Assembly (NCBI RefSeq): GCF_055900595.2
Contig: NZ_CM148325.1
DNA: 64,000 bases
Direction: 5' to 3' (one strand)
How positions within the stretch are numbered: position 1 is the stretch's first letter; every line of letters starts with the position of its first letter. The translations under genes and the position numbers were made by a program. The notes beneath the pieces are model-generated. The model made no database searches. It saw only the letters and a list, made by a program, of their open reading frames with translations, and had not been told where the DNA came from. Below, one piece after another: positions 8,349 to 43,848 of this stretch.

Positions 8349-9314
8349 ATGAAGCAGCAGGCAGGCATTGGCATTCTTTTGGCGCTCACCACAGCAATTT
8401 GCTGGGGGGCGTTGCCAATTGCAATGAAGCAGGTGCTGGAGGTGATGGAACCTCCGACAATCGTGTTTTACCGTTTCTTGATGGCGAGTATTGGCCTTGG
8501 TGCCATTCTTGCGGTGAAGAAGAGGTTGCCGCCATTACGCGTGTTTCGTAAGCCACGCTGGTTGATTTTGTTAGCAGTGGCGACCGCCGGGCTGTTTGGG
8601 AACTTCATCCTGTTCAGCTCATCTTTGCAATACCTGAGTCCGACCGCTTCGCAGGTGATTGGGCAACTCTCGCCAGTTGGCATGATGGTTGCCAGCGTAT
8701 TTATCCTGAAAGAGAAAATGCGCAGCACTCAGGTTGTAGGGGCATTGATGCTCCTGAGCGGCCTGGTGATGTTTTTTAACACCAGTCTGGTCGAGATATT
8801 TACAAAGCTCACCGATTACACCTGGGGAGTTATTTTTGGGGTCGGTGCGGCGACGGTTTGGGTGAGTTATGGCGTGGCGCAAAAGGTTTTATTACGTCGG
8901 CTGGCCTCACCGCAGATCCTGTTTTTATTGTACACTTTATGTACAATTGCGCTCTTCCCTCTGGCAAATCCTGGAGTGATAGCGCAGCTTAGCCACTGGC
9001 AGCTCGCATGTTTAATTTTTTGCGGACTGAATACATTGGTAGGATATGGCGCCCTGGCGGAAGCGATGGCTCGCTGGCAGGCAGCGCAGGTGAGCGCGAT
9101 CATCACGCTCACCCCACTGTTTACGCTGTTTTTTTCAGATCTTTTATCACTGGCCTGGCCCGATTTCTTCGCCAGACCGATGTTAAACCTTTTAGGTTAT
9201 CTCGGTGCGTTTGTCGTGGTTGCGGGCGCGATGTATTCCGCCATTGGTCATCGTATTTGGGGCGGTTTACGTAAGCATACAACGGTGGTATCGCAACCCC
9301 GCGCAGGCGAATGA
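8349..9314 (+). CDS. yhbE: EamA/DMT-family inner membrane transporter YhbE
   Basis: 321 aa polytopic ORF between rpmA and obgE. Confidence 0.9.
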   Translation: MKQQAGIGILLALTTAICWGALPIAMKQVLEVMEPPTIVFYRFLMASIGLGAILAVKKRLPPLRVFRKPRWLILLAVATAGLFGNFILFSSSLQYLSPTASQVIGQLSPVGMMVASVFILKEKMRSTQVVGALMLLSGLVMFFNTSLVEIFTKLTDYTWGVIFGVGAATVWVSYGVAQKVLLRRLASPQILFLLYTLCTIALFPLANPGVIAQLSHWQLACLIFCGLNTLVGYGALAEAMARWQAAQVSAIITLTPLFTLFFSDLLSLAWPDFFARPMLNLLGYLGAFVVVAGAMYSAIGHRIWGGLRKHTTVVSQPRAGE

Positions 9315-10502
<1,188 letters not shown>

Positions 10503-11976: not shown

Positions 11977-12094
11977 AATCTCGCGCTAACAACCTGGAAT
12001 CGAGCCGTCATACTACGGCGCAACGCCCTATAAAGTAAACGATGACCCTGCGGGAACTTCAGGGTAAAATGACTATCAAAATGTGAATTGCAGC

Positions 12095-12128
12095 TGACCT
12101 GGGACTTGTACCCGGGTCGGTATTTTTT
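12095..12128 (+). promoter_or_regulatory. Terminator-like hairpin plus T-run inside the greA leader (candidate GraL-type attenuator)
   Basis: gacctggg...cccgggtc stem followed by ttttttt, about 100 bp upstream of greA start. Confidence 0.4.
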
Positions 12129-14003: not shown

Positions 14004-15938
14004 ATGGCGAAAAACCTAATACTCTGGCTGGTCATTGCCGTTGTGCTGATGTCAGTATTCCAGAGCTTTGGGCCCAGCGAGTCTAATGGCCGTAAGGTGG
14101 ATTACTCTACCTTCCTACAAGAGGTCAATAACGACCAGGTTCGTGAAGCGCGTATCAACGGACGTGAAATCAACGTTACCAAGAAAGATAGTAACCGTTA
14201 TACCACTTACATTCCGGTTCAGGATCCGAAATTACTGGATAACCTGTTGACCAAGAACGTCAAGGTTGTCGGTGAACCGCCTGAAGAACCAAGCCTGCTG
14301 GCTTCTATCTTCATCTCCTGGTTCCCGATGCTGTTGCTGATTGGTGTCTGGATCTTCTTCATGCGTCAAATGCAGGGCGGCGGTGGCAAAGGTGCCATGT
14401 CGTTCGGTAAGAGCAAAGCGCGCATGCTGACGGAAGATCAGATCAAAACGACCTTTGCTGACGTTGCGGGCTGCGACGAAGCAAAAGAAGAAGTTGCTGA
14501 ACTGGTTGAGTATCTGCGCGAGCCGAGCCGCTTCCAGAAACTCGGCGGTAAGATCCCGAAAGGCGTCCTGATGGTCGGTCCTCCGGGTACCGGTAAAACG
14601 CTGCTGGCGAAAGCGATTGCAGGCGAAGCGAAAGTTCCGTTCTTTACTATCTCCGGTTCTGACTTCGTAGAAATGTTCGTCGGTGTGGGTGCATCCCGTG
14701 TTCGTGACATGTTCGAACAGGCGAAGAAAGCGGCTCCGTGCATCATCTTTATCGATGAAATCGACGCCGTAGGCCGCCAGCGTGGCGCAGGTCTGGGCGG
14801 TGGTCACGATGAACGTGAACAGACTCTGAACCAGATGCTGGTTGAGATGGATGGCTTCGAAGGTAACGAAGGTATCATCGTTATCGCTGCGACTAACCGT
14901 CCGGACGTTCTCGACCCGGCGCTGCTGCGTCCTGGCCGTTTCGACCGTCAGGTTGTGGTTGGCTTGCCAGATGTTCGCGGTCGTGAGCAGATTCTGAAAG
15001 TTCACATGCGTCGCGTACCATTGGCACCCGATATCGACGCGGCAATCATTGCCCGTGGTACTCCAGGTTTCTCCGGTGCTGACCTGGCGAACCTGGTGAA
15101 CGAAGCGGCACTGTTCGCTGCTCGTGGCAACAAACGTGTTGTGTCGATGGTTGAGTTCGAGAAAGCGAAAGACAAAATCATGATGGGTGCGGAACGTCGC
15201 TCCATGGTGATGACGGAAGCGCAGAAAGAATCGACTGCTTACCACGAAGCAGGTCACGCGATTATCGGTCGCCTGGTGCCGGAACACGATCCGGTGCACA
15301 AAGTAACGATTATCCCGCGCGGTCGTGCGCTGGGTGTGACCTTCTTCTTGCCTGAGGGCGACGCAATCAGCGCCAGCCGTCAGAAACTGGAAAGCCAGAT
15401 TTCTACGCTGTACGGCGGTCGTCTGGCAGAAGAGATCATCTACGGGCCGGAACATGTTTCTACCGGGGCGTCCAACGATATTAAAGTTGCGACCAACCTG
15501 GCGCGTAACATGGTTACCCAGTGGGGCTTCTCTGAGAAACTCGGTCCGCTGCTGTATGCGGAAGAAGAAGGTGAAGTGTTCCTCGGTCGTAGCGTAGCGA
15601 AAGCGAAACATATGTCCGATGAAACGGCACGTATCATCGACCAGGAAGTGAAAGCACTGATCGAGCGTAACTATAATCGTGCGCGTCAGCTTCTGACCGA
15701 CAATATGGATATTCTGCATGCGATGAAAGATGCTCTCATGAAATATGAGACTATCGACGCACCGCAGATTGATGACCTGATGGCACGTCGCGATGTACGT
15801 CCGCCAGCGGGCTGGGAAGAACCAGGCGCTTCTAACAATTCTGGCGACAATGGTAGTCCAAAGGCTCCGCGTCCGGTTGATGAACCGCGTACGCCGAACC
15901 CGGGTAACACCATGTCAGAGCAGTTAGGCGACAAGTAA
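14004..15938 (+). CDS. ftsH: ATP-dependent zinc metalloprotease FtsH
   Basis: ATG at 14004 gives [15 protein letters not shown]..., 644 aa; Walker A GPPGTGKT and zinc motif HEAGH; ORF-track start 13995 is a TTG extension. Confidence 0.95.
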
Positions 15939-20779: not shown

Positions 20780-22138
<1,359 letters not shown>

Positions 22139-22173
22139 TTAATTAACTGATGATGAGCCTGGATTTCCGCTCT

Positions 22174-22547: not shown

Positions 22548-22669
22548 CTTTCCCTTAGAGTCCTTTTTCAAATATACTGTGAAGACTTCGGCCTTCGTAG
22601 TGGGATTTGAAAAAATCCTTCTGGAAAGTGCTCCAGACCGCAGTTGCGGTTATAGGGTTCAGTTATATA

Positions 22670-22694
22670 AAGCCCCGATTTATCGGGGTTTTTT
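22670..22694 (+). terminator. Terminator/attenuator-like hairpin between metY and rimP
   Basis: aaagccccgatt-tatcggggtttttt. Confidence 0.5.
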
Positions 22695-22753
22695 GTTATC
22701 TGACTACAGAATAACTGGGCTTTAGGCCCTTTTTTTATGTCTTGGGGGTGGGC

Positions 22754-23206
22754 TTGTCCACATTAGAGCAAAAATTAACAGAGATGATTACTGCGCCAGT
22801 TGAGGCCCTGGGTTTTGAACTGGTTGGCATCGAGTTTATTCGCGGTCGCACATCCACACTGCGCATCTATATTGATAGTGAAGATGGCATCAATGTTGAT
22901 GATTGTGCTGATGTGAGCCACCAGGTAAGTGCTGTGCTGGATGTCGAAGATCCCATCACCGTTGCTTATAACCTGGAAGTCTCCTCACCGGGTCTCGATC
23001 GCCCACTGTTCACGGCTGAACACTACGCCCGTTTCGTCGGAGAAGAGGTGACTCTGGTTCTCCGTATGGCGGTACAAAACCGTCGTAAATGGCAGGGCGT
23101 TATCAAAGCGGTAGACGGTGAAATGATCACAGTTACCGTCGAAGGTAAAGATGAAGTGTTCGCGCTGAGTAATATCCAGAAGGCGAACCTGGTTCCCCAC
23201 TTTTAA
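22754..23206 (+). CDS. rimP: Ribosome maturation factor RimP
   Basis: 150 aa from TTG at 22754 ([15 protein letters not shown]...); start codon choice uncertain (GTG 22748 also possible). Confidence 0.8.
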
Positions 23207-23233
23207 TAGTCTGGATGAGGTGAAAAGCCCGCG

Positions 23234-24721
<1,488 letters not shown>

Positions 24722-24745
24722 TAAACTGTAGCAGGAAGGAACAGC

Positions 24746-27418
24746 ATGACAGATGTAACGATTAAAACGCTGGCCGCAGAGCGACAGACCTCCGTGGAAC
24801 GCCTGGTACAGCAATTTGCTGATGCAGGTATCCGGAAGTCTGCTGACGACTCTGTGTCCGCACAAGAGAAACAGACTTTAATTGACCACCTGAATCAGAA
24901 AAATTCAGGCCCGGACAAATTAACGCTGCAACGTAAAACCCGCAGCACCCTTAACATTCCTGGTACCGGTGGAAAAAGCAAATCGGTACAAATCGAAGTC
25001 CGCAAGAAACGCACCTTTGTGAAACGCGATCCGCAAGAGGCTGAACGCCTTGCTGCGGAAGAGCAGGCGCAGCGTGAAGCGGAAGAGCAAGCCCGTCGTG
25101 AGGCAGAAGAATCGGCCAAACGCGAGGCGCAACAAAAAGCTGAACGTGAGGCCGCAGAACAAGCTAAGCGTGAAGCCGCTGAACAAGCGAAACGTGAAGC
25201 TGCGGAAAAAGACAAAGTGAGCAATCAACAAGACGATATGACTAAAAACGCCCAGGCTGAAAAAGCCCGCCGTGAGCAGGAAGCTGCAGAGCTCAAGCGT
25301 AAAGCTGAAGAAGAAGCGCGTCGTAAACTCGAAGAAGAAGCACGTCGCGTTGCTGAAGAAGCACGTCGTATGGCGGAAGAAAACAAATGGACTGATAACG
25401 CGGAACCGACTGAAGATTCCAGCGATTATCACGTTACTACTTCTCAACATGCTCGCCAGGCAGAAGACGAAAGCGATCGTGAAGTCGAAGGCGGCCGTGG
25501 CCGTGGTCGTAACGCGAAAGCAGCGCGTCCGAAGAAAGGCAACAAACACTCTGAATCAAAAGCTGATCGTGAAGAAGCACGCGCAGCAGTACGTGGCGGT
25601 AAAGGCGGGAAACGTAAAGGTTCTTCGCTGCAGCAAGGCTTCCAGAAGCCAGCTCAGGCCGTTAACCGTGACGTTGTGATTGGCGAAACCATCACCGTTG
25701 GCGAACTGGCGAACAAGATGGCGGTTAAAGGTTCTCAGGTCATCAAAGCGATGATGAAACTGGGCGCAATGGCAACCATCAACCAGGTTATCGATCAGGA
25801 AACCGCACAGCTGGTTGCTGAAGAGATGGGCCACAAAGTTATCCTGCGTCGTGAAAACGAGCTGGAAGAAGCGGTAATGAGCGACCGTGACACGGGTGCT
25901 GCGGCTGAACCGCGCGCGCCGGTTGTGACCATCATGGGTCACGTTGACCACGGTAAAACCTCTTTGCTGGACTACATTCGTTCAACGAAAGTGGCCTCTG
26001 GCGAAGCGGGCGGCATTACCCAGCACATTGGTGCATACCACGTTGAAACTGAAAACGGCATGATCACCTTCCTGGACACCCCGGGGCACGCCGCGTTTAC
26101 TTCAATGCGTGCACGTGGTGCGCAGGCAACGGACATCGTAGTCCTGGTTGTTGCTGCCGACGACGGCGTAATGCCGCAGACCATCGAAGCAATTCAGCAC
26201 GCGAAAGCGGCAGGCGTGCCGGTTGTGGTTGCAGTGAACAAGATCGACAAACCAGAAGCCGATCCAGATCGCGTTAAGAACGAACTCTCTCAGTACGGCA
26301 TCCTGCCGGAAGAGTGGGGCGGTGAAAGCCAGTTCGTACACGTGTCTGCGAAAGCAGGTACCGGTATCGATGAACTGCTGGACGCTATCCTGTTGCAGGC
26401 AGAAGTTCTGGAACTGAAAGCGGTACGTAAAGGTATGGCGAGCGGTGCGGTTATCGAATCCTTCCTCGATAAAGGTCGTGGTCCGGTTGCTACTGTTCTG
26501 GTACGTGAAGGTACTCTGCACAAGGGCGACATCGTTCTGTGTGGTTTCGAATACGGTCGTGTTCGCGCAATGCGTAACGAAATGGGTCAGGAAGTGCTGG
26601 AAGCAGGTCCGTCCATTCCAGTTGAAATCCTTGGCTTGTCCGGTGTTCCGGCAGCGGGTGACGAAGTTACCGTAGTGCGTGACGAGAAGAAAGCACGTGA
26701 AGTTGCACTGTATCGTCAGGGCAAATTCCGTGAAGTTAAACTGGCACGTCAGCAGAAATCGAAACTCGAGAACATGTTCGCCAACATGACCGAAGGCGAA
26801 GTTCACGAAGTGAACATCGTTCTGAAGGCAGACGTTCAGGGTTCCGTGGAAGCGATCTCCGACTCCTTGCTGAAACTGTCTACTGACGAAGTTAAAGTGA
26901 AGATTATCGGTTCTGGCGTAGGTGGTATCACCGAAACCGACGCTACCCTGGCTGCGGCGTCCAACGCCATCCTGGTTGGCTTCAACGTACGTGCTGATGC
27001 CTCTGCACGTAAAGTGATTGAAGCGGAAAGCCTGGATCTGCGTTACTACTCCGTCATCTATAACCTGATCGACGAAGTGAAAGCGGCGATGAGCGGTATG
27101 CTGTCTCCGGAACTGAAACAGCAGATTATCGGTCTGGCGGAAGTTCGTGATGTGTTCAAATCACCGAAATTTGGTGCCATCGCAGGTTGTATGGTTACTG
27201 AAGGTGTGGTTAAACGTCACAACCCGATCCGCGTTCTGCGCGACAACGTGGTTATCTACGAAGGCGAGCTGGAGTCCCTGCGCCGCTTCAAAGATGACGT
27301 TAACGAAGTCCGTAACGGTATGGAATGTGGTATCGGCGTTAAGAACTACAACGACGTCCGCACTGGCGATGTGATCGAAGTATTCGAAATCATCGAGATC
27401 CAACGTACCATCGCTTAA
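24746..27418 (+). CDS. infB: Translation initiation factor IF-2
   Basis: 890 aa ORF with E/A/R/K-rich N-terminal region and GTPase motifs ([18 protein letters not shown]). Confidence 0.95.
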
Positions 27419-27435
27419 GGTTTTTAGGGTTCTAT

Positions 27436-27510
27436 GCGGGATAAGGCGTTTACGCCGCATCCGGCATGGATTGCCTGATGCGACGCTGGCGCATCTTATC
27501 AGGCTACGTG
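27436..27510. repeat. REP (repetitive extragenic palindrome) elements between infB and rbfA
   Basis: gcgggataaggcgtttacgccgcatccggc... and ...gcctgatgcgacgctggcgcatcttatcaggc, typical REP sequence. Confidence 0.55.
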
Positions 27511-28978: not shown

Positions 28979-29344
<366 letters not shown>

Positions 29345-29360
29345 TTCTTGCGAGTTTCAG

Positions 29361-29387
29361 AAAAGGGGCCTGAGTGGCCCCTTTTTT
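29361..29387 (+). terminator. rpsO intrinsic terminator hairpin
   Basis: aaaaggggcc-tgag-tggcccctttttt. Confidence 0.65.
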
Positions 29388-29589
29388 CAAACTGACGGCA
29401 GCAATTCACTGGAAACTAATGTATTGTTGCTATGAATGATCTTCCGTTGCAGAGGTTCGCGCGGCTAATGAGAGGCTTTACCCACATTGGGCTGGGTTAG
29501 GGTTGTCATTAGTCGCGAGGATGCGCAGAAGATCGGGTATTAACACCAGTGCCGTAAGGTGCTGTCTAAGAAAGAGAAAGGATATTACA

Positions 29590-31725
29590 TTGCTTAATCC
29601 GATCGTTCGTAAATTCCAGTACGGCCAACACACCGTGACTCTGGAAACCGGCATGATGGCTCGTCAGGCTACTGCCGCTGTTATGGTTAGCATGGATGAC
29701 ACCGCGGTATTCGTTACCGTTGTTGGTCAGAAAAAAGCCAAACCAGGTCAGGACTTCTTCCCGCTGACCGTTAACTATCAGGAGCGTACCTACGCTGCTG
29801 GTCGTATCCCGGGTAGCTTCTTCCGTCGTGAAGGCCGCCCAAGCGAAGGCGAAACGCTGATCGCGCGTCTGATTGACCGCCCGATTCGCCCGCTGTTCCC
29901 GGAAGGTTTCGTCAACGAAGTTCAGGTTATCGCCACCGTGGTTTCTGTTAACCCGCAGGTTAACCCGGATATCGTCGCGATGATTGGTGCTTCTGCTGCG
30001 CTGTCTCTGTCTGGTATTCCGTTCAATGGTCCGATTGGTGCTGCCCGCGTAGGTTACATCAATGACCAGTACGTACTGAACCCGACTCAGGACGAGCTGA
30101 AAGAGAGCAAACTGGACCTGGTTGTTGCCGGTACAGAAGCTGCCGTGCTGATGGTTGAATCTGAAGCTGAACTGCTGAGCGAAGACCAGATGCTGGGCGC
30201 AGTGGTGTTCGGTCATGAACAACAGCAGGTTGTTATTCAGAACATCAATGAACTGGTGAAAGAAGCCGGTAAACCGCGTTGGGATTGGCAGCCGGAGCCG
30301 GTAAACGAAGCGCTGAACGCGCGCGTTGCTGCGCTGGCTGAAGCTCGTCTGAGCGATGCTTATCGCATTACCGACAAACAAGAGCGTTATGCGCAGGTTG
30401 ATGTCATCAAATCTGAAACCATCGCGACGCTGCTTGCTGAAGACGAAACCCTGGACGAAAACGAACTGGGTGAAATTCTGCACGCTATCGAGAAAAATGT
30501 TGTTCGTAGCCGCGTACTGGCAGGTGAACCGCGTATCGACGGTCGTGAAAAAGATATGATCCGTGGTCTGGATGTGCGTACTGGCGTGCTGCCGCGTACT
30601 CACGGTTCTGCGTTGTTCACCCGTGGTGAAACGCAGGCACTGGTTACCGCAACGCTGGGTACTGCACGTGACGCACAGGTTCTTGATGAACTGATGGGCG
30701 AACGTACTGACACCTTCCTGTTCCACTACAACTTCCCTCCGTATTCCGTAGGTGAAACTGGCATGGTCGGTTCTCCGAAGCGTCGTGAAATTGGTCACGG
30801 TCGTCTGGCGAAGCGCGGCGTGCTGGCAGTAATGCCGGATATGGACAAATTCCCGTACACCGTACGTGTAGTGTCTGAAATTACCGAATCCAACGGTTCT
30901 TCTTCTATGGCTTCCGTGTGCGGTGCGTCTCTGGCGCTGATGGACGCAGGTGTGCCAATCAAAGCTGCTGTTGCGGGTATCGCAATGGGTCTGGTGAAAG
31001 AAGGCGACAACTACGTTGTACTGTCTGACATTTTGGGCGACGAAGATCACCTGGGCGATATGGACTTCAAAGTTGCGGGGTCCCGCGACGGTATCTCTGC
31101 ACTGCAGATGGATATCAAAATTGAAGGTATCACCAAAGAGATCATGCAGGTTGCGCTGAATCAAGCTAAAGGTGCGCGTCTGCATATCCTGGGCGTCATG
31201 GAGCAGGCGATCAACGCGCCGCGTGGTGATATCTCTGAGTTTGCACCGCGTATCCATACCATCAAGATCAATCCGGACAAGATCAAAGACGTTATCGGTA
31301 AAGGCGGTTCTGTTATCCGTGCCCTGACCGAAGAAACTGGCACTACCATCGAAATCGAAGATGACGGTACTGTGAAGATCGCAGCGACCGACGGCGAGAA
31401 GGCGAAAAACGCTATTCGTCGTATCGAAGAGATCACTGCAGAAATCGAAGTGGGTCGCGTCTACAATGGTAAAGTGACCCGTATCGTTGACTTTGGCGCG
31501 TTTGTTGCCATCGGCGGCGGTAAAGAAGGTCTGGTCCACATCTCTCAAATCGCCGACAAGCGTGTTGAGAAAGTGACCGACTACCTGCAGATGGGTCAGG
31601 AAGTACCGGTGAAAGTTCTGGAAGTCGATCGCCAGGGCCGTATCCGTCTGAGCATTAAAGAAGCGACTGAGCAGTCTCAACCTGCTGCAGCACCGGAAGC
31701 TCCGGCTGCTGAACAGGGCGAGTAA
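29590..31725 (+). CDS. pnp: Polyribonucleotide nucleotidyltransferase (PNPase)
   Basis: 711 aa from TTG at 29590 ([16 protein letters not shown]...); ORF-track start 29503 is an upstream in-frame extension into the leader. Confidence 0.9.
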
Positions 31726-31736
31726 GGTTGCCATTT

Positions 31737-31763
31737 GCCCTCCGCTGCGGCGGGGGGCTTTTA
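31737..31763 (+). terminator. Terminator-like hairpin after pnp
   Basis: gccctccgctgcggcggggggctttt. Confidence 0.5.
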
Positions 31764-31833
31764 ACCGGGCAGGACGCCTTGTTAGCAACCGGGAACAGGA
31801 CGTTCATTCAACCGTGGTCTTCGGGAGTGGGAA

Positions 31834-32718
31834 ATGAAGCCTTTTTTGCGCTGGTGTTTCGTTGCGACAGCACTTACGCTTGCAGGATGCAGTAATACTT
31901 CCTGGCGTAAAAGTGAAGTCCTCGCGGTACCATTGCAACCGACTTTGCAGCAGGAAGTGATTCTGGCACGTATGGAACAAATCCTTGCCAGTCGGGCTTT
32001 AACCGATGACGAACGCGCACAGCTTTTATATGAGCGCGGAGTGTTGTATGATAGTCTCGGTCTGAGGGCATTAGCGCGTAACGATTTTTCGCAAGCGCTG
32101 GCAATCCGACCGGATATGCCTGAAGTATTCAATTACTTAGGCATATATTTAACGCAGGCAGGCAATTTTGATGCTGCCTATGAAGCGTTTGATTCTGTAC
32201 TTGAGCTTGATCCAACTTACAACTACGCGCACTTGAATCGCGGGATCGCATTATATTACGGCGGTCGTGACAAGTTAGCGCAAGATGATCTGCTGGCGTT
32301 TTATCAAGACGATCCCAATGATCCTTTCCGTAGTCTGTGGCTTTATCTCGCCGAGCAGAAGCTCGATGAGAAGCAGGCTAAAGAAGTGTTAAAACAGCAC
32401 TTCGAAAAATCGGATAAGGAGCAGTGGGGATGGAACATTGTCGAGTTCTACCTGGGCAACATTAGCGAACAAACGTTAATGGAAAGGCTCAAGGCGGACG
32501 CAACGGATAACACCTCGCTCGCTGAGCATCTCAGTGAAACCAACTTCTATTTAGGTAAGTACTACCTAAGTCTGGGGGATTTGGACAGCGCCACGGCACT
32601 GTTCAAACTGGCGGTTGCCAACAACGTTCATAACTTTGTTGAGCACCGATACGCATTGTTGGAATTATCGCTCCTGGGCCAGGACCAAGATGACCTGGCA
32701 GAATCGGACCAGCAATAG
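31834..32718 (+). CDS. nlpI: TPR-repeat outer membrane lipoprotein NlpI
   Basis: 294 aa ORF with lipobox LTLAGCS. Confidence 0.95.
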
Positions 32719-32824: not shown

Positions 32825-32905
32825 ATGAAAATTGCTGATCAATTTCATGATGAGTTATGTAGACTGGCCGCCATTAATTTTGAGGCACACGTACTACATG
32901 GCTGA
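32825..32905 (+). CDS. yrbN: Small protein YrbN (26 aa) overlapping the deaD start
   Basis: ATG at 32825 gives [26 protein letters not shown], stop TGA at 32903-32905; recalled as the annotated small ORF upstream of deaD. Confidence 0.5.
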
Positions 32906-34787
32906 ATTCGAAACCACTTTTGCAGATCTGGGCCTGAAGGCTCCTATCCTTGAAGCCCTTAACGATCTGGGTTACGAAAAACCATCTCCAATTCAGGCAG
33001 AGTGTATTCCACATCTGCTGAATGGCCGCGACGTTCTGGGTATGGCCCAGACGGGGAGCGGAAAAACGGCAGCATTCTCTTTACCTCTGCTGCAAAATCT
33101 TGATCCTGAGCTGAAAGCACCACAGATTCTGGTGCTGGCACCGACCCGCGAACTGGCGGTACAGGTTGCTGAGGCAATGACGGATTTCTCTAAACACATG
33201 CGCGGCGTAAACGTGGTTGCCCTGTACGGCGGCCAGCGTTATGACGTGCAATTACGCGCCCTGCGTCAGGGGCCGCAGATCGTTGTCGGTACTCCAGGCC
33301 GTCTGCTGGACCACCTGAAACGTGGCACTCTGGACCTCTCTAAACTGAGCGGTCTGGTTCTGGATGAAGCTGACGAAATGCTGCGCATGGGCTTCATCGA
33401 AGACGTTGAAACCATTATGGCGCAGATCCCGGAAGGTCATCAGACCGCTCTGTTCTCTGCAACTATGCCGGAAGCGATTCGTCGCATTACCCGCCGCTTT
33501 ATGAAAGAGCCGCAGGAAGTACGCATTCAGTCCAGCGTGACTACCCGTCCTGACATCAGCCAGAGCTACTGGACTGTGTGGGGGATGCGTAAAAACGAAG
33601 CGCTGGTACGTTTCCTGGAAGCGGAAGATTTTGATGCGGCGATTATCTTCGTTCGTACTAAAAACGCGACTTTGGAAGTGGCAGAAGCTCTTGAGCGTAA
33701 CGGCTACAACAGCGCTGCACTGAACGGTGACATGAACCAGGCGCTGCGTGAGCAGACTCTGGAACGCCTGAAAGATGGTCGTCTGGATATCCTGATTGCG
33801 ACCGACGTTGCGGCCCGTGGCCTGGACGTTGAGCGTATCAGCCTGGTAGTTAACTACGATATCCCGATGGATTCCGAGTCTTACGTTCACCGTATTGGTC
33901 GTACAGGCCGTGCGGGGCGTGCTGGTCGTGCGCTGCTGTTCGTTGAGAACCGCGAGCGTCGTCTGCTGCGCAACATTGAACGCACTATGAAGCTGACCAT
34001 TCCGGAAGTAGAACTGCCGAACGCAGAGCTGCTGGGCAAACGCCGTCTGGAAAAATTCGCCGCTAAAGTACAGCAGCAGCTGGAAAGCAGCGATCTGGAT
34101 CAATACCGTGCACTGCTGAGCAAAATTCAGCCGACTGCAGAAGGTGAAGAGCTGGATCTCGAAACTCTGGCAGCCGCACTGCTGAAAATGGCACAGGGTG
34201 AACGTACTCTGATCGTGCCGCCAGATGCGCCGATGCGTCCGAAACGTGAATTCCGTGACCGTGATGACCGTGGTCCGCGCGATCGTAACGACCGTGGCCC
34301 GCGTGGCGACCGTGAAGATCGTCCACGTCGTGAACGTCGTGATGTTGGCGATATGCAGCTGTACCGTATTGAAGTGGGCCGCGATGATGGTGTTGAAGTT
34401 CGTCATATCGTTGGCGCGATTGCTAACGAAGGTGACATCAGCAGCCGTTACATCGGTAACATCAAGCTGTTTGCTTCTCACTCCACCATCGAACTGCCGA
34501 AAGGTATGCCGGGTGAAGTGCTGCAACACTTTACGCGTACTCGCATTCTCAACAAGCCGATGAACATGCAGTTACTGGGCGATGCACAGCCGCATACTGG
34601 CGGTGAGCGTCGTGGCGGTGGTCGTGGTTTCGGTGGCGAACGTCGTGAAGGCGGTCGTAACTTCAGCGGTGAACGCCGTGAAGGTGGTCGTGGTGATGGT
34701 CGTCGTTTCAGCGGCGAACGTCGTGAAGGCCGCGCGCCGCGTCGTGATGACTCTACTGGTCGTCGTCGTTTCGGTGGTGATGCGTAA
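32898..34787 (+). CDS. deaD: Cold-shock DEAD-box ATP-dependent RNA helicase DeaD (CsdA)
   Basis: ATG at 32898 gives [16 protein letters not shown]..., 629 aa; motifs [25 protein letters not shown]; RGG-rich C-terminus. Confidence 0.9.
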
Positions 34788-42617: not shown

Positions 42618-43658
42618 ATGACTGGTCAGTCTTCATCTCAGGCGGCAACGCCCATTCAGTGGTGGAAACCCGCGCTTTTCTTTCTCGTTGTCATTGCCGG
42701 ACTTTGGTATGTGAAATGGCAACCTTACTACGGTAAAGCCTTTACTGCCGCCGAAACTCACAGTATCGGTAAATCTATCCTTGCGCAGGCGGATGCTAAT
42801 CCGTGGCAAGCTGCGTGGGACTACGCGATGGTCTATTTCCTCGCGGTATGGAAAGCGGCGGTACTGGGGGTGATCCTCGGGTCGTTGATTCAGGTGCTGA
42901 TCCCTCGTGACTGGCTGCTACGCACGCTGGGGCAATCGCGCTTTCGCGGCACGCTGCTGGGAACGCTGTTTTCGCTGCCGGGCATGATGTGTACTTGCTG
43001 TGCGGCACCGGTCGCGGCGGGGATGCGTCGCCAACAGGTGTCGATGGGCGGGGCGCTGGCATTCTGGATGGGCAATCCGTTGTTAAACCCGGCGACGCTG
43101 GTGTTTATGGGTTTTGTCCTCGGCTGGGGCTTTGCGGCGATTCGTCTGGTGGCGGGACTGGTGATGGTGTTGCTGATTGCGACCCTGGTGCAAAAATGGG
43201 TGCGTGAAACACCGCAAACACAGGCACCGGTCGAAATTGACATGCCGGAAGTGCAGGGCGGATTCTTTAGCCGCTGGGGTAGGGCGCTATGGACGCTTTT
43301 CTGGAGTACGATCCCGGTATATATCCTTGCCGTACTGGCGTTGGGTGCCGCTCGCGTCTGGTTATTCCCCCATGCCGATGGTGCTGTCGATAACAGCCTG
43401 ATGTGGGTGATTGCGATGGCGGTAGCGGGATGCTTGTTTGTCATTCCCACGGCAGCAGAAATTCCGATTGTACAAACGATGATGCTGGCAGGTATGGGAA
43501 CCGCTCCGGCGCTGGCATTGTTGATGACGCTTCCTGCTGTAAGTTTGCCGTCGCTGATAATGTTGCGTAAAGCGTTCCCGGCGAAAGCCTTATGGCTGAC
43601 GGGTGCGATGGTGGCGGTGTCTGGTGTGATTGTCGGCGGGCTGGCGCTGTTGTTCTGA
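42618..43658 (+). CDS. yraQ: Permease-family inner membrane protein YraQ
   Basis: 346 aa polytopic ORF. Confidence 0.9.
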   Translation: MTGQSSSQAATPIQWWKPALFFLVVIAGLWYVKWQPYYGKAFTAAETHSIGKSILAQADANPWQAAWDYAMVYFLAVWKAAVLGVILGSLIQVLIPRDWLLRTLGQSRFRGTLLGTLFSLPGMMCTCCAAPVAAGMRRQQVSMGGALAFWMGNPLLNPATLVFMGFVLGWGFAAIRLVAGLVMVLLIATLVQKWVRETPQTQAPVEIDMPEVQGGFFSRWGRALWTLFWSTIPVYILAVLALGAARVWLFPHADGAVDNSLMWVIAMAVAGCLFVIPTAAEIPIVQTMMLAGMGTAPALALLMTLPAVSLPSLIMLRKAFPAKALWLTGAMVAVSGVIVGGLALLF

Positions 43659-43673
43659 TTTGAGGGAAAACAT

Positions 43674-43848
43674 GTCGGATGCGGCGTAAACGCCTTATCC
43701 GACCTACGGTTTGCATCGTTGTAGGCCTGATAAGACGCGGCAAGCGTCGCATCAGGCAACGGCAGTCGGATGCGGCGCAGGCGCCTTATCCGACCTACGG
43801 TTTGCATCGTTGCAGGCCTGATAAGACGCGGCAAGCGTCGCATCAGGC
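43674..43848. repeat. Tandem BIME: two near-identical 84-bp REP-pair units at 91-bp period
   Basis: Unit 1 43674-43757 and unit 2 43765-43848, each gtcggatgcggcg...gccttatccgacctacggtttgcatcgttg.aggcctgataagacgcggcaagcgtcgcatcaggc. Confidence 0.7.

What the first reader, a model, noticed from the sequence alone, without database searches (positions are those of the whole stretch)
29566..31788. Gene-length antisense open frames mirroring pnp, nusA, ftsH, argG and deaD
The track shows reverse-strand ORFs of 740 aa over pnp, 626 aa over nusA, 495 aa over ftsH, 412 aa over argG and 425 aa over deaD. For pnp I checked that the antisense frame is codon-aligned with the sense frame, so antisense stops correspond only to sense TTA, CTA and TCA codons. 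Those codons are strongly avoided in highly expressed E. coli genes, so a stop-free mirror frame is the expected by-product of codon bias. I read these as expression-level indicators, not genes.
Basis: inference. Interest (0 to 1): 0.2.

Follow-up and report, generated by a model that had tools for sequence, protein, structure and literature searches.

The report
Codon-bias mirror ORFs, not genes
The gene-length open frames on the strand opposite pnp, nusA, ftsH, argG and deaD are real in the sequence, but they are a long-known side effect of the real genes avoiding three rare codons; they are broken in many other E. coli strains and are not genes.

Summary
The window is an E. coli chromosome segment (yrbG to garP). 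All five mirror ORFs exist at the stated sizes, and all are codon-aligned with the annotated gene, so their stops can arise only from sense TTA, CTA or TCA codons. The counts of those codons are pnp 0/711, nusA 0/495, argG 1/447, deaD 3/629 and ftsH 6/644 (all six at the gene ends). Stop-free runs this long are essentially impossible under average codon usage (P about 1e-6 for pnp). They are unremarkable under high-expression usage (P = 0.10 to 0.29).

Nothing supports coding:
- E. coli K-12 has a CTA at pnp codon 242, which makes an antisense TAG. About 30% of 5,417 complete E. coli genomes share that allele.
- Across 80 gammaproteobacterial pnp loci, openness tracks GC3 (Spearman rho -0.88 with TTA+CTA+TCA frequency), not relatedness.
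- Of the sense-synonymous differences from K-12, 94% change the mirror "protein".
- The mirror products match no Pfam family. Only 24 sporadic database clusters resemble the pnp mirror product.
- No promoter was found. The only known antisense transcript, SraG, runs away from the ORF.

The phenomenon is already known (Silke 1997; Mir 2012). Interest is very low.

The parts
29566..31788 (-). 740-codon mirror ORF (TTG to TAA). It covers all of pnp, 22 nt of the pnp leader and 63 nt downstream of the pnp stop. It is codon-aligned with pnp.
   Evidence: frame alignment from coordinates mod 3; 0 TTA/CTA/TCA in pnp
29590..31725 (+). pnp (polynucleotide phosphorylase, 711 codons, TTG start), CAI 0.655. 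This is the real gene whose codon usage creates the mirror ORF.
30313..30315 (+). pnp codon 242. It is CTG here and CTA in K-12 and in about 30% of complete E. coli genomes, where it reads as TAG in the mirror frame and splits it.
22985..24865 (-). 626-codon mirror ORF over nusA. It extends into the 3' end of rimP and the 5' end of infB, because all three genes share one reading frame.
   Evidence: coordinates mod 3
23234..24721 (+). nusA, 495 codons, 0 TTA/CTA/TCA, CAI 0.538
14232..15719 (-). 495-codon mirror ORF inside ftsH. The stop-free run is 560 codons, corresponding to ftsH codons 78 to 637.
14004..15938 (+). ftsH, 644 codons. Its six TTA/CTA/TCA codons all lie at codons 5, 17, 38, 77, 638 and 641.
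20912..22150 (+). 412-codon mirror ORF of argG. It is on the + strand because argG is on the - strand.
20780..22123 (-). argG, 447 codons, with a single TCA at codon 434
33252..34529 (-). 425-codon mirror ORF inside deaD. The stop-free run is 439 codons, between the TTA codons at positions 119 and 559.
32898..34787 (+). deaD, 629 codons, three TTA codons, CAI 0.615
9267..10058 (-). 263-codon mirror ORF of cgtA/obgE (one TTA in 390 codons).
29360..29575 (-). SraG sRNA, the only documented antisense transcript at pnp. It starts about 10 nt inside the 3' end of the mirror ORF and runs away from it towards rpsO.
   Evidence: Rfam RF00082, 160.8 bits at 29360..29531; K-12 sraG annotation mapped to the window; PMC5029454
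31732..31762 (.). pnp terminator hairpin (31737..31758, followed by UUUU). Its mirror image supplies the GGAGGG that lies 4 nt upstream of the first ATG (31734..31732) of the mirror ORF. The Shine-Dalgarno look-alike is therefore a mirrored terminator stem and would be base-paired in an antisense RNA.

Best explanation
These are non-coding 'shadow' or mirror reading frames. In the antisense frame that is codon-aligned with a gene (frame -1), a stop codon can arise only opposite a sense TTA, CTA or TCA codon. In E. coli these are disfavoured Leu and Ser codons, and translational selection removes them almost completely from well-expressed genes such as pnp, nusA, ftsH, deaD, infB and obgE, and here also argG. 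The mirror frame therefore stays open over hundreds of codons as a passive by-product. Nothing reads it as a gene. Its 'protein' changes whenever the real gene takes a synonymous change, and it is cut whenever a neutral CTG-to-CTA-type change arises.

Shown here: frame alignment, codon counts, the null models, the within-species polymorphism, the cross-species dependence on GC3, and the lack of antisense constraint.

Inferred: absence of translation. No expression data could be examined directly.
For: - All five ORFs are codon-aligned with the sense gene (coordinates).
- Their mother genes have 0, 0, 1, 3 and 6 TTA/CTA/TCA codons, against 12.6 to 14.4 expected for pnp, deaD and ftsH from the lower-CAI genes of the window (9.1 and 10.3 for the shorter nusA and argG).
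- Under Sharp-Li high-expression usage, P(longest run >= observed) is 0.10, 0.21, 0.18, 0.29 and 0.19.
- Across 58 genes, CAI against the frequency of these codons gives rho = -0.74.
- There is no avoidance beyond general codon bias. In the 10 genes with CAI above 0.5, TTA+CTA make up 12 of 71 minor Leu codons (21% expected, P = 0.22), and TCA makes up 10 of 28 minor Ser codons (43% expected, P = 0.28).
- K-12 carries mirror-frame stops in pnp (1), nusA (2), argG (3) and deaD (4).
- The pnp CTA allele is found in 1612 complete E. coli genomes and the CTG allele in 3771.
- Across 80 pnp orthologs, stop-generating codon frequency against GC3 gives rho = -0.88. Aeromonas (76% protein identity, GC3 0.68 to 0.80) is open again, while AT-rich relatives have 45 to 56 stops.
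- PNPase identity of 95 to 99.6% corresponds to mirror-frame identity of only 72 to 91%.
- Of 287 sense-synonymous codon differences from K-12, 270 change the mirror amino acid. That leaves 5.9% antisense-synonymous, against 7.5 to 9.4% expected without constraint.
- Mirror products have no Pfam family above threshold. Their composition is un-protein-like: Phe 8 to 13%, Lys about 1 to 3%, Met 0.2 to 1.7%.
- Only 24 sporadic clusters among 5.8 billion proteins resemble the pnp mirror product.
- No sigma-70-like promoter was found on the - strand between 29000 and 32600.
- The literature states exactly this explanation for E. coli frame -1 ORFs: Mir et al. 2012, PMC3454372, citing Silke 1997, and Moshensky & Alexeevski, 10.1101/724807.
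Against: - A fully stop-free pnp is only a 10% event even under the strongest codon bias, so the completeness in this strain is partly luck.
- The Sharp-Li weights were entered from my memory of the published table, not from a file.
- nusA taken alone shows fewer TTA/CTA than its other minor Leu codons predict (0 of 13, P about 0.04 by hand calculation). However, nusA was selected for having none, and K-12 has two.
- The first ATG of the pnp mirror ORF has a GGAGGG 4 nt upstream. That motif is the mirrored terminator stem.
- Gene callers have occasionally called the frame (24 clusters, one with 164 members).
- No ribosome-profiling or proteomic data were examined directly.
Confidence: 0.95

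Rival explanations
1. One or more of the mirror ORFs is a genuine antisense overlapping gene (OLG), translated from its own antisense mRNA, like the EHEC and Pseudomonas OLGs reported by the Neuhaus, Scherer and Ardern groups.
For: The ORFs are very long (412 to 740 codons). The pnp mirror ORF has an ATG with an upstream GGAGGG. Bacterial genomes are reported to hold more long alternative-frame ORFs than codon usage predicts, and a few antisense OLGs have experimental support (PMC3454372; PMC9927249 and PMC8850804 listed). Some databases hold predicted proteins from this frame.
Against: - The frame is interrupted in K-12 and in about 30% of complete E. coli genomes, and in 16 of 20 close orthologs.
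- There is no antisense constraint.
- No domain or family matches, and the composition is aberrant.
- No promoter-like site was found.
- The Shine-Dalgarno look-alike is a mirrored terminator stem.
- None of the five mother genes appears in the held supplementary candidate lists of the ribosome-profiling survey of E. coli antisense OLGs.
- Mir et al. themselves exempt frame -1 ORFs opposite highly expressed genes from their excess.
Confidence: 0.02
2. The open frames reflect base composition or mutational bias (G+C-rich third positions, TA-dinucleotide avoidance) rather than expression-linked translational selection. On this view they say nothing about expression level.
For: All three stop-generating codons end in A, and two of them contain TA. 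Between species, GC3 predicts openness very well (rho +0.83 to +0.86 with open fraction). Aeromonas genes with GC3 of 0.68 to 0.80 are open. argG has only a middling CAI (0.47) yet is almost fully open.
Against: Within this one genome, neighbouring genes under the same mutational regime differ about tenfold in TTA/CTA/TCA frequency, and that frequency follows CAI (rho -0.74). The 5' ends of ftsH, infB and deaD, where local CAI drops to 0.31 to 0.41, are exactly where their TTA/CTA/TCA codons sit. This explanation is therefore valid between species but not for the within-genome contrast. It complements the main explanation rather than replacing it.
Confidence: 0.1
3. Selection acts directly against antisense stops for a non-coding reason, for example to let ribosomes that start spuriously on antisense RNA run through, or to keep a reservoir for de novo genes. 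TTA, CTA and TCA would then be depleted more than codon bias alone predicts.
For: Moshensky & Alexeevski report 2,898 antiparallel ORFs with significant stop avoidance and slight resistance to synonymous change in some, such as those opposite dnaK. The six ftsH codons are strongly clustered at the gene ends (permutation P below 1/5000).
Against: Relative to other equally disfavoured Leu and Ser codons, the stop-generating ones are not specifically depleted in the high-CAI genes of the window (P = 0.22 and 0.28). The ftsH clustering coincides with the low-CAI 5' segment. Stops are common polymorphisms.
Confidence: 0.02

Closest known systems
Long non-stop frames on the antisense strand caused by biased codon usage (Merino et al. 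1994; Silke 1997, Gene 194:143; re-examined for E. coli by Mir et al. 2012, PMC3454372)
   Same: [quoted passage not shown] The conclusion that such ORFs are statistical by-products is also the same.
   Different: Nothing of substance. This is a local instance, with the added demonstration that the pnp frame is polymorphic for a stop within E. coli.
Antisense ORFs opposite dnaK/hsp70, annotated as 'NAD-specific glutamate dehydrogenase' (Pfam PF10712)
   Same: These are also very long frame -1 ORFs opposite a conserved, well-expressed gene. They have been miscalled as proteins in databases and show no negative selection on the antisense product (10.1101/724807). One database relative of the pnp mirror product even carries that name (P0012).
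   Different: The mother gene differs. The dnaK case acquired a Pfam family and a claimed enzyme activity, whereas the pnp, nusA, ftsH, argG and deaD frames match no family.
Experimentally supported antisense overlapping genes in bacteria (for example laoB in EHEC and the other EHEC candidates, and olg1/olg2 in Pseudomonas aeruginosa)
   Same: These are also ORFs embedded antisense in an annotated gene (PMC5810103, PMC9927249, PMC8850804).
   Different: Those cases rest on Ribo-seq, promoter or phenotype evidence and reported purifying selection. Here frame conservation and purifying selection were tested and not met, and no expression evidence was found.
SraG antisense sRNA of the rpsO-pnp intergenic region
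   Same: It is a real transcript from the strand opposite pnp, at 29360..29575 (-).
   Different: It is non-coding, covers only the pnp leader, starts at the extreme 3' end of the mirror ORF and runs away from it. It therefore cannot serve as mRNA for the mirror ORF.

Membership tests
Codon-bias-generated frame -1 shadow ORF (Silke-type) | The ORF lies in the antisense frame that is codon-aligned with the annotated gene, so stops arise only from sense TTA/CTA/TCA | tested here: met
   Coordinates mod 3 for all five pairs. Stop counts in the aligned frame equal the TTA+CTA+TCA counts.
Codon-bias-generated frame -1 shadow ORF (Silke-type) | The mother gene has strong codon bias and a deficit of TTA/CTA/TCA relative to other genes of the genome | tested here: met
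   CAI is 0.47 to 0.66. The genes carry 0 to 6 such codons against 9 to 14 expected from lower-CAI window genes. Rho = -0.74 across 58 genes.
Codon-bias-generated frame -1 shadow ORF (Silke-type) | The observed length is compatible with a null that keeps the protein and uses high-expression codon usage | tested here: met
   P(longest run >= observed) = 0.10 to 0.29. There is no specific depletion relative to other minor codons.
Codon-bias-generated frame -1 shadow ORF (Silke-type) | Openness follows codon usage or GC3, not phylogeny | tested here: met
   80 loci. Rho of GC3 against bad-codon frequency is -0.88 to -0.91. Close relatives are interrupted and distant Aeromonas is open.
Functional antisense overlapping gene (OLG) | The reading frame is kept intact across strains and related species | tested here: not met
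   K-12 has stops in pnp, nusA, argG and deaD. 1612 of 5417 E. coli genomes carry the pnp stop allele. Only 4 of 20 orthologs with at least 90% identity are fully open.
Functional antisense overlapping gene (OLG) | Purifying selection acts on the antisense product | tested here: not met
   94% of sense-synonymous differences are antisense-nonsynonymous, as expected or slightly more than expected under no constraint. Mirror identity is 72 to 91% where PNPase identity is 95 to 99.6%.
Functional antisense overlapping gene (OLG) | It has its own promoter or antisense mRNA covering the ORF | tested here: inconclusive
   The consensus scan finds no - strand promoter between 29000 and 32600. The known antisense transcript SraG does not cover the ORF. 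A consensus scan cannot exclude weak promoters.
Functional antisense overlapping gene (OLG) | It has a start codon with a usable ribosome-binding site | tested here: inconclusive
   An ATG at 31734 has a GGAGGG 4 nt upstream, but the motif is the mirrored pnp terminator stem and is paired in the predicted antisense fold.
Functional antisense overlapping gene (OLG) | Direct evidence of translation (Ribo-seq periodicity, mass spectrometry) | not testable with these tools
   There is only an indirect check: the five mother genes are absent from the main text and held supplementary lists of a Ribo-seq survey of E. coli antisense OLGs.
Functional antisense overlapping gene (OLG) | The product has a recognisable protein family or a protein-like composition | tested here: not met
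   No Pfam hit reaches threshold; the best is zf-UBP at 16.3 bits against a cut-off of 22.7. Composition is Phe 8 to 13%, Lys about 1 to 3%, Met 0.2 to 1.7%.

The most novel reading that the evidence does not exclude
A sub-segment of one of these mirror frames, for example downstream of the ATG at 31734 opposite the pnp 3' end, is translated at a low level from pervasive antisense transcription in strains where the frame is intact. This would yield a young, strain-specific, de novo polypeptide that selection has not yet shaped.
Probability: 0.03. Interest if true: 0.4.

Novelty: already known. Interest (0 to 1): 0.05.

Why it matters
The finding matters mainly as a caution. ORF length alone is not evidence of a gene. 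Frame -1 opposite well-expressed genes is the classic trap, and it has already put spurious proteins into databases: the pnp mirror frame appears there as 'Spidroin 1', 'NAD-specific glutamate dehydrogenase' and 'Uncharacterised protein'. The practical value is to keep these five ORFs, and the similar one opposite obgE, out of any list of candidate novel genes. If one of them were translated after all, it would be an unusually long antisense overlapping gene inside an essential-process gene, but the evidence here is strongly against that.

Tried and rejected
- **Shine-Dalgarno look-alike.** The GGAGGG plus ATG at 31743..31732 was considered as a genuine ribosome-binding site. It was rejected because it is the reverse complement of the pnp terminator stem (31737..31758 followed by UUUU) and is paired in the predicted fold.
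- **ftsH codon clustering.** The extreme clustering of the six ftsH TTA/CTA/TCA codons (permutation P below 1/5000) was considered as a sign of selection to keep the mirror frame open. It was rejected because four of the codons sit in the low-CAI first 77 codons (bin CAI 0.31) and two in the last seven codons. infB and deaD show the same 5' pattern.
- **Promoter scan.** Scanning the - strand around pnp found nothing.
- **Pfam scan.** Scanning the five mirror products gave only one sub-threshold zf-UBP hit.
- **Homology search.** Searching with the pnp mirror product found only 24 clusters, all explicable as miscalled antisense ORFs. Their identity falls as fast as synonymous sites diverge, for example 73% in Salmonella.
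- **Ribo-seq preprint.** The text and held supplements of the E. coli antisense-OLG preprint were searched for the five mother genes by gene and product name. There were no hits; the 'DEAD' matches were to an unrelated helicase.
- **SraG as mRNA.** SraG was considered as a possible mRNA for the ORF. It was rejected on orientation and extent.
Full report
**What the window is.** The rpsO-pnp part of the window (29000..32000) matches 5,425 of 5,426 complete E. coli genomes. The whole window is colinear with NZ_CM128605.1 positions 605284 to 669283, differing at 18 of 64,000 bases. The RefSeq annotation of that record therefore transfers coordinate for coordinate. The window runs from yrbG to garP. 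It contains ftsH, argG (on the - strand), the metY-rimP-nusA-infB-rbfA-truB-rpsO-pnp cluster, nlpI and deaD.

| Mirror ORF | Strand | Length | Annotated gene opposite |
|---|---|---|---|
| 29566..31788 | - | 740 aa | pnp (29590..31725 +) |
| 22985..24865 | - | 626 aa | nusA (23234..24721 +) |
| 14232..15719 | - | 495 aa | ftsH (14004..15938 +) |
| 20912..22150 | + | 412 aa | argG (20780..22123 -) |
| 33252..34529 | - | 425 aa | deaD (32898..34787 +) |

- The only factual slip is that the argG mirror ORF lies on the + strand, because argG itself is on the - strand.
- Coordinates modulo 3 show that all five ORFs are codon-aligned with the gene opposite, not only the pnp one. Their stops can therefore come only from sense TTA, CTA or TCA codons.
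- The nusA mirror ORF overruns nusA on both sides because rimP, nusA and infB all share one reading frame.

**Is it more than chance?** The TTA+CTA+TCA counts are pnp 0 of 711 codons, nusA 0/495, argG 1/447, deaD 3/629 and ftsH 6/644. For comparison, infB has 7/890 and cgtA 1/390. The other two antisense frames of pnp hold 24 and 39 stops.

I kept each protein sequence fixed and redrew its synonymous codons under three usage models:
- With uniform synonymous usage, a stop-free pnp mirror has probability 2e-12.
- With the usage of the 53 lower-CAI genes of the same window, where 16.5% of Leu codons are TTA or CTA and 13.1% of Ser codons are TCA, the probability is 1e-6.
- With the Sharp-Li high-expression usage (2.4% and 3.3%; weights entered from my memory of the 1987 table), the probability is 0.10 for pnp and 0.21 for nusA. 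The probability of the observed longest run is 0.18 for argG, 0.29 for deaD and 0.19 for ftsH.

Across the 58 window genes of at least 100 codons, CAI correlates with TTA+CTA+TCA frequency (Spearman -0.74, p = 4e-11) and with the open fraction of the mirror frame (+0.61).

**Is there avoidance beyond codon bias?** In the ten window genes with CAI above 0.5, TTA+CTA make up 12 of 71 minor Leu codons (21% expected, P = 0.22). TCA makes up 10 of 28 minor Ser codons (43% expected, P = 0.28). The stop-generating codons are therefore no rarer than other equally disfavoured codons.

The one oddity is ftsH. Its six such codons are all at codons 5, 17, 38, 77, 638 and 641 (codon-permutation P below 1/5000). 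This coincides with a low-optimality 5' segment: the first 60-codon bin has CAI 0.31, against 0.5 to 0.79 further in. infB (codons 45, 54, 59) and deaD (62, 119) show the same pattern. This is the familiar weaker codon bias at gene starts, not protection of an antisense frame.

**Conservation within E. coli.** K-12 MG1655 (locus L083) was compared gene by gene with the window.
- K-12 pnp has CTA at codon 242, which is TAG in the mirror frame and cuts the longest run to 469 codons.
- K-12 nusA has two stop-generating codons, argG three and deaD four.
- A 47-nt probe carrying the CTA allele matches exactly in 1,612 complete E. coli genomes. The CTG allele of the window matches exactly in 3,771.
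- The 740-codon frame is therefore split in roughly 30% of complete E. coli genomes by this one site alone.

**Selection on the antisense frame.**
- Between K-12 and the window, the six genes differ at 287 codons that are synonymous in the sense frame. Of these, 270 change the mirror amino acid.
- The antisense-synonymous fraction is 5.9%. Without any antisense constraint, 7.5 to 9.4% would be expected.
- PNPase is 99.6% identical between the two strains, while the mirror product is 91% identical.
- In Citrobacter, Pseudescherichia and Escherichia sp. ESNIH1, where the frame is still open, PNPase identity is 95 to 97.5% and mirror identity is 72 to 74%.
- This is the signature of selection on the sense frame only.

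**Conservation across species.** One scan of species-representative genomes returned 80 gammaproteobacterial pnp loci with flanks. The orthologous pnp, nusA, infB and deaD were extracted by tblastn.
- The frequency of stop-generating codons follows GC3, with Spearman rho of -0.88 for pnp and -0.89 to -0.91 for the other three genes.
- Only 4 of 20 pnp orthologs with at least 90% protein identity are fully open, and 14 have an open fraction below 0.7.
- AT-rich relatives (Gilliamella, Candidatus Pantoea symbionts, Haemophilus) have 34 to 56 stops.
- Distant but GC3-rich Aeromonas (76% identity, GC3 0.68 to 0.80) is open again: pnp has 1 stop with a run of 706 or 707 codons, nusA has 0 stops in one species, and infB has a run of 892 codons.
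- Openness is therefore a property of codon usage, not an inherited feature.

**Signs of a gene.**
- None of the five mirror products matches a Pfam family at threshold. The best hit is zf-UBP at 16.3 bits against a cut-off of 22.7.
- Their composition is the mirror image of optimal codons: Phe 8 to 13% (3.3% in annotated proteins), Lys 0.8 to 2.9% (4.5%), Met 0.2 to 1.7% (2.8%), Pro 0.7 to 2.2% (4.5%) and His about 5% (1.8%).
- A search of 5.8 billion protein clusters with the pnp mirror product found only 24 clusters, with no Pfam domains. Names include 'Uncharacterised protein', 'Spidroin 1' and 'NAD-specific glutamate dehydrogenase'. These are sporadic miscalls. The last name is the label of the notorious dnaK antisense family PF10712.
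- No sigma-70-like site was found on the - strand between 29000 and 32600.
- The first ATG of the pnp mirror ORF (31734) is preceded by GGAGGG. That motif is the reverse complement of the pnp terminator stem (31737..31758, followed by UUUU) and is paired in the predicted antisense fold.
- The only documented antisense transcript here is SraG (Rfam 160.8 bits at 29360..29531; K-12 annotation maps to 29575..29360). It begins at the very 3' end of the mirror ORF and runs towards rpsO (PMC5029454).
- A Ribo-seq-based preprint listing embedded antisense candidates in several E. coli strains does not mention any of the five mother genes in its text or held supplements. This is weak negative evidence.

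**Comparison with what is known.** This is the textbook case described by Merino et al. (1994) and Silke (1997). Mir et al. 2012 re-examined it for E. coli and found that the codon usage of the most highly expressed genes statistically generates long ORFs in frame -1 and in no other alternative frame (PMC3454372). Moshensky and Alexeevski (10.1101/724807) reached the same conclusion from Ka/Ks across 929 genomes, with the dnaK antisense 'glutamate dehydrogenase' as their showcase. The five ORFs meet every feature tested for that class. They fail the tested features of a functional antisense overlapping gene: frame conservation, purifying selection and protein-likeness.

**Verdict.** 'Expression-level indicator' should be read loosely:
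- The signal is noisy. infB, with CAI 0.60, reaches only 352 of 890 codons, while argG, with CAI 0.47, is almost fully open.
- It differs between strains.
- Between species it reports GC3 rather than expression.

The phenomenon is already known, and interest is very low. The residual novel possibility is low-level translation of part of a mirror frame as a strain-specific de novo peptide. I put this at about 3%.

Noticed in passing
window 14016-14234 and 15915-15926 (ftsH); 24878-24922 (infB); 33081-33254 (deaD): TTA/CTA/TCA codons are confined to the first 60 to 120 codons, and in ftsH also to the last 7 codons. Local CAI there drops to 0.31 to 0.41. In ftsH the clustering has a permutation P below 1/5000, and the same six codons are present in K-12. 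This looks like the 5' low-optimality codon 'ramp'.
   Followed up: partly
window 22754-27418: rimP, nusA and infB all start at positions equal to 2 mod 3, so the three consecutive genes share one reading frame. This is why the nusA mirror ORF runs uninterrupted across both gene junctions (22985..24865).
   Followed up: partly
window 42890-43843 (-): A 317-aa unannotated ORF lies antisense to the low-CAI permease gene yraQ (42618..43658 +), in the antisense frame where third codon positions face each other. TTA/CTA/TCA avoidance therefore does not explain it. The open run inside yraQ is 255 codons (codon-permutation P = 0.017). yraQ has only 6 Tyr and 2 His, the residues that mostly create stops in that frame.
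   Followed up: partly
window 9267-10058 (-): A 263-aa codon-aligned mirror ORF lies opposite cgtA/obgE (one TTA in 390 codons) and extends into the 3' end of yhbE.
   Followed up: yes
window 29360-29575 (-): The SraG small RNA is antisense to the pnp leader and Shine-Dalgarno region. Its promoter must lie inside the first codons of pnp. It overlaps the last ~10 nt of the pnp mirror ORF.
   Followed up: partly
window 29503-31725 (+) and 29566-31788 (-): The maximal + strand ORF containing pnp and the mirror ORF are both exactly 740 codons, offset by 63 nt at each end. This is a coincidence of flanking stops. The real pnp start is the TTG at 29590 (711 codons).
   Followed up: yes
proteins P0002, P0004, P0012 (relatives of the translation of window 29569-31788 -): Public databases hold miscalled proteins from the pnp mirror frame. 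They are named 'Uncharacterised protein' (Salmonella), 'Spidroin 1' (Cronobacter sakazakii 701) and 'NAD-specific glutamate dehydrogenase' (assigned to a nematode, presumably bacterial contamination). One ENA cluster (P0001, 563 aa) has 164 member sequences.
   Followed up: no
window 29000-32000: The rpsO-pnp allele of this window is at least 99% identical in only 17 of 5,425 complete E. coli genomes; the rest fall in the 95 to 99% band. pnp differs from K-12 at 3.1% of bases (66 of 2136), almost all synonymous. The window therefore comes from a less commonly sequenced lineage.
   Followed up: no
window 27435-27505 (+), 43724-43795 (-), 12007-12128 (+), 22636-22736 (+), 29017-29131 (+): Rfam matches at gathering score: two naRNA4 (REP-type) elements, the greA leader, the rimP leader and the S15 leader. 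All are expected features of this E. coli region.
   Followed up: no
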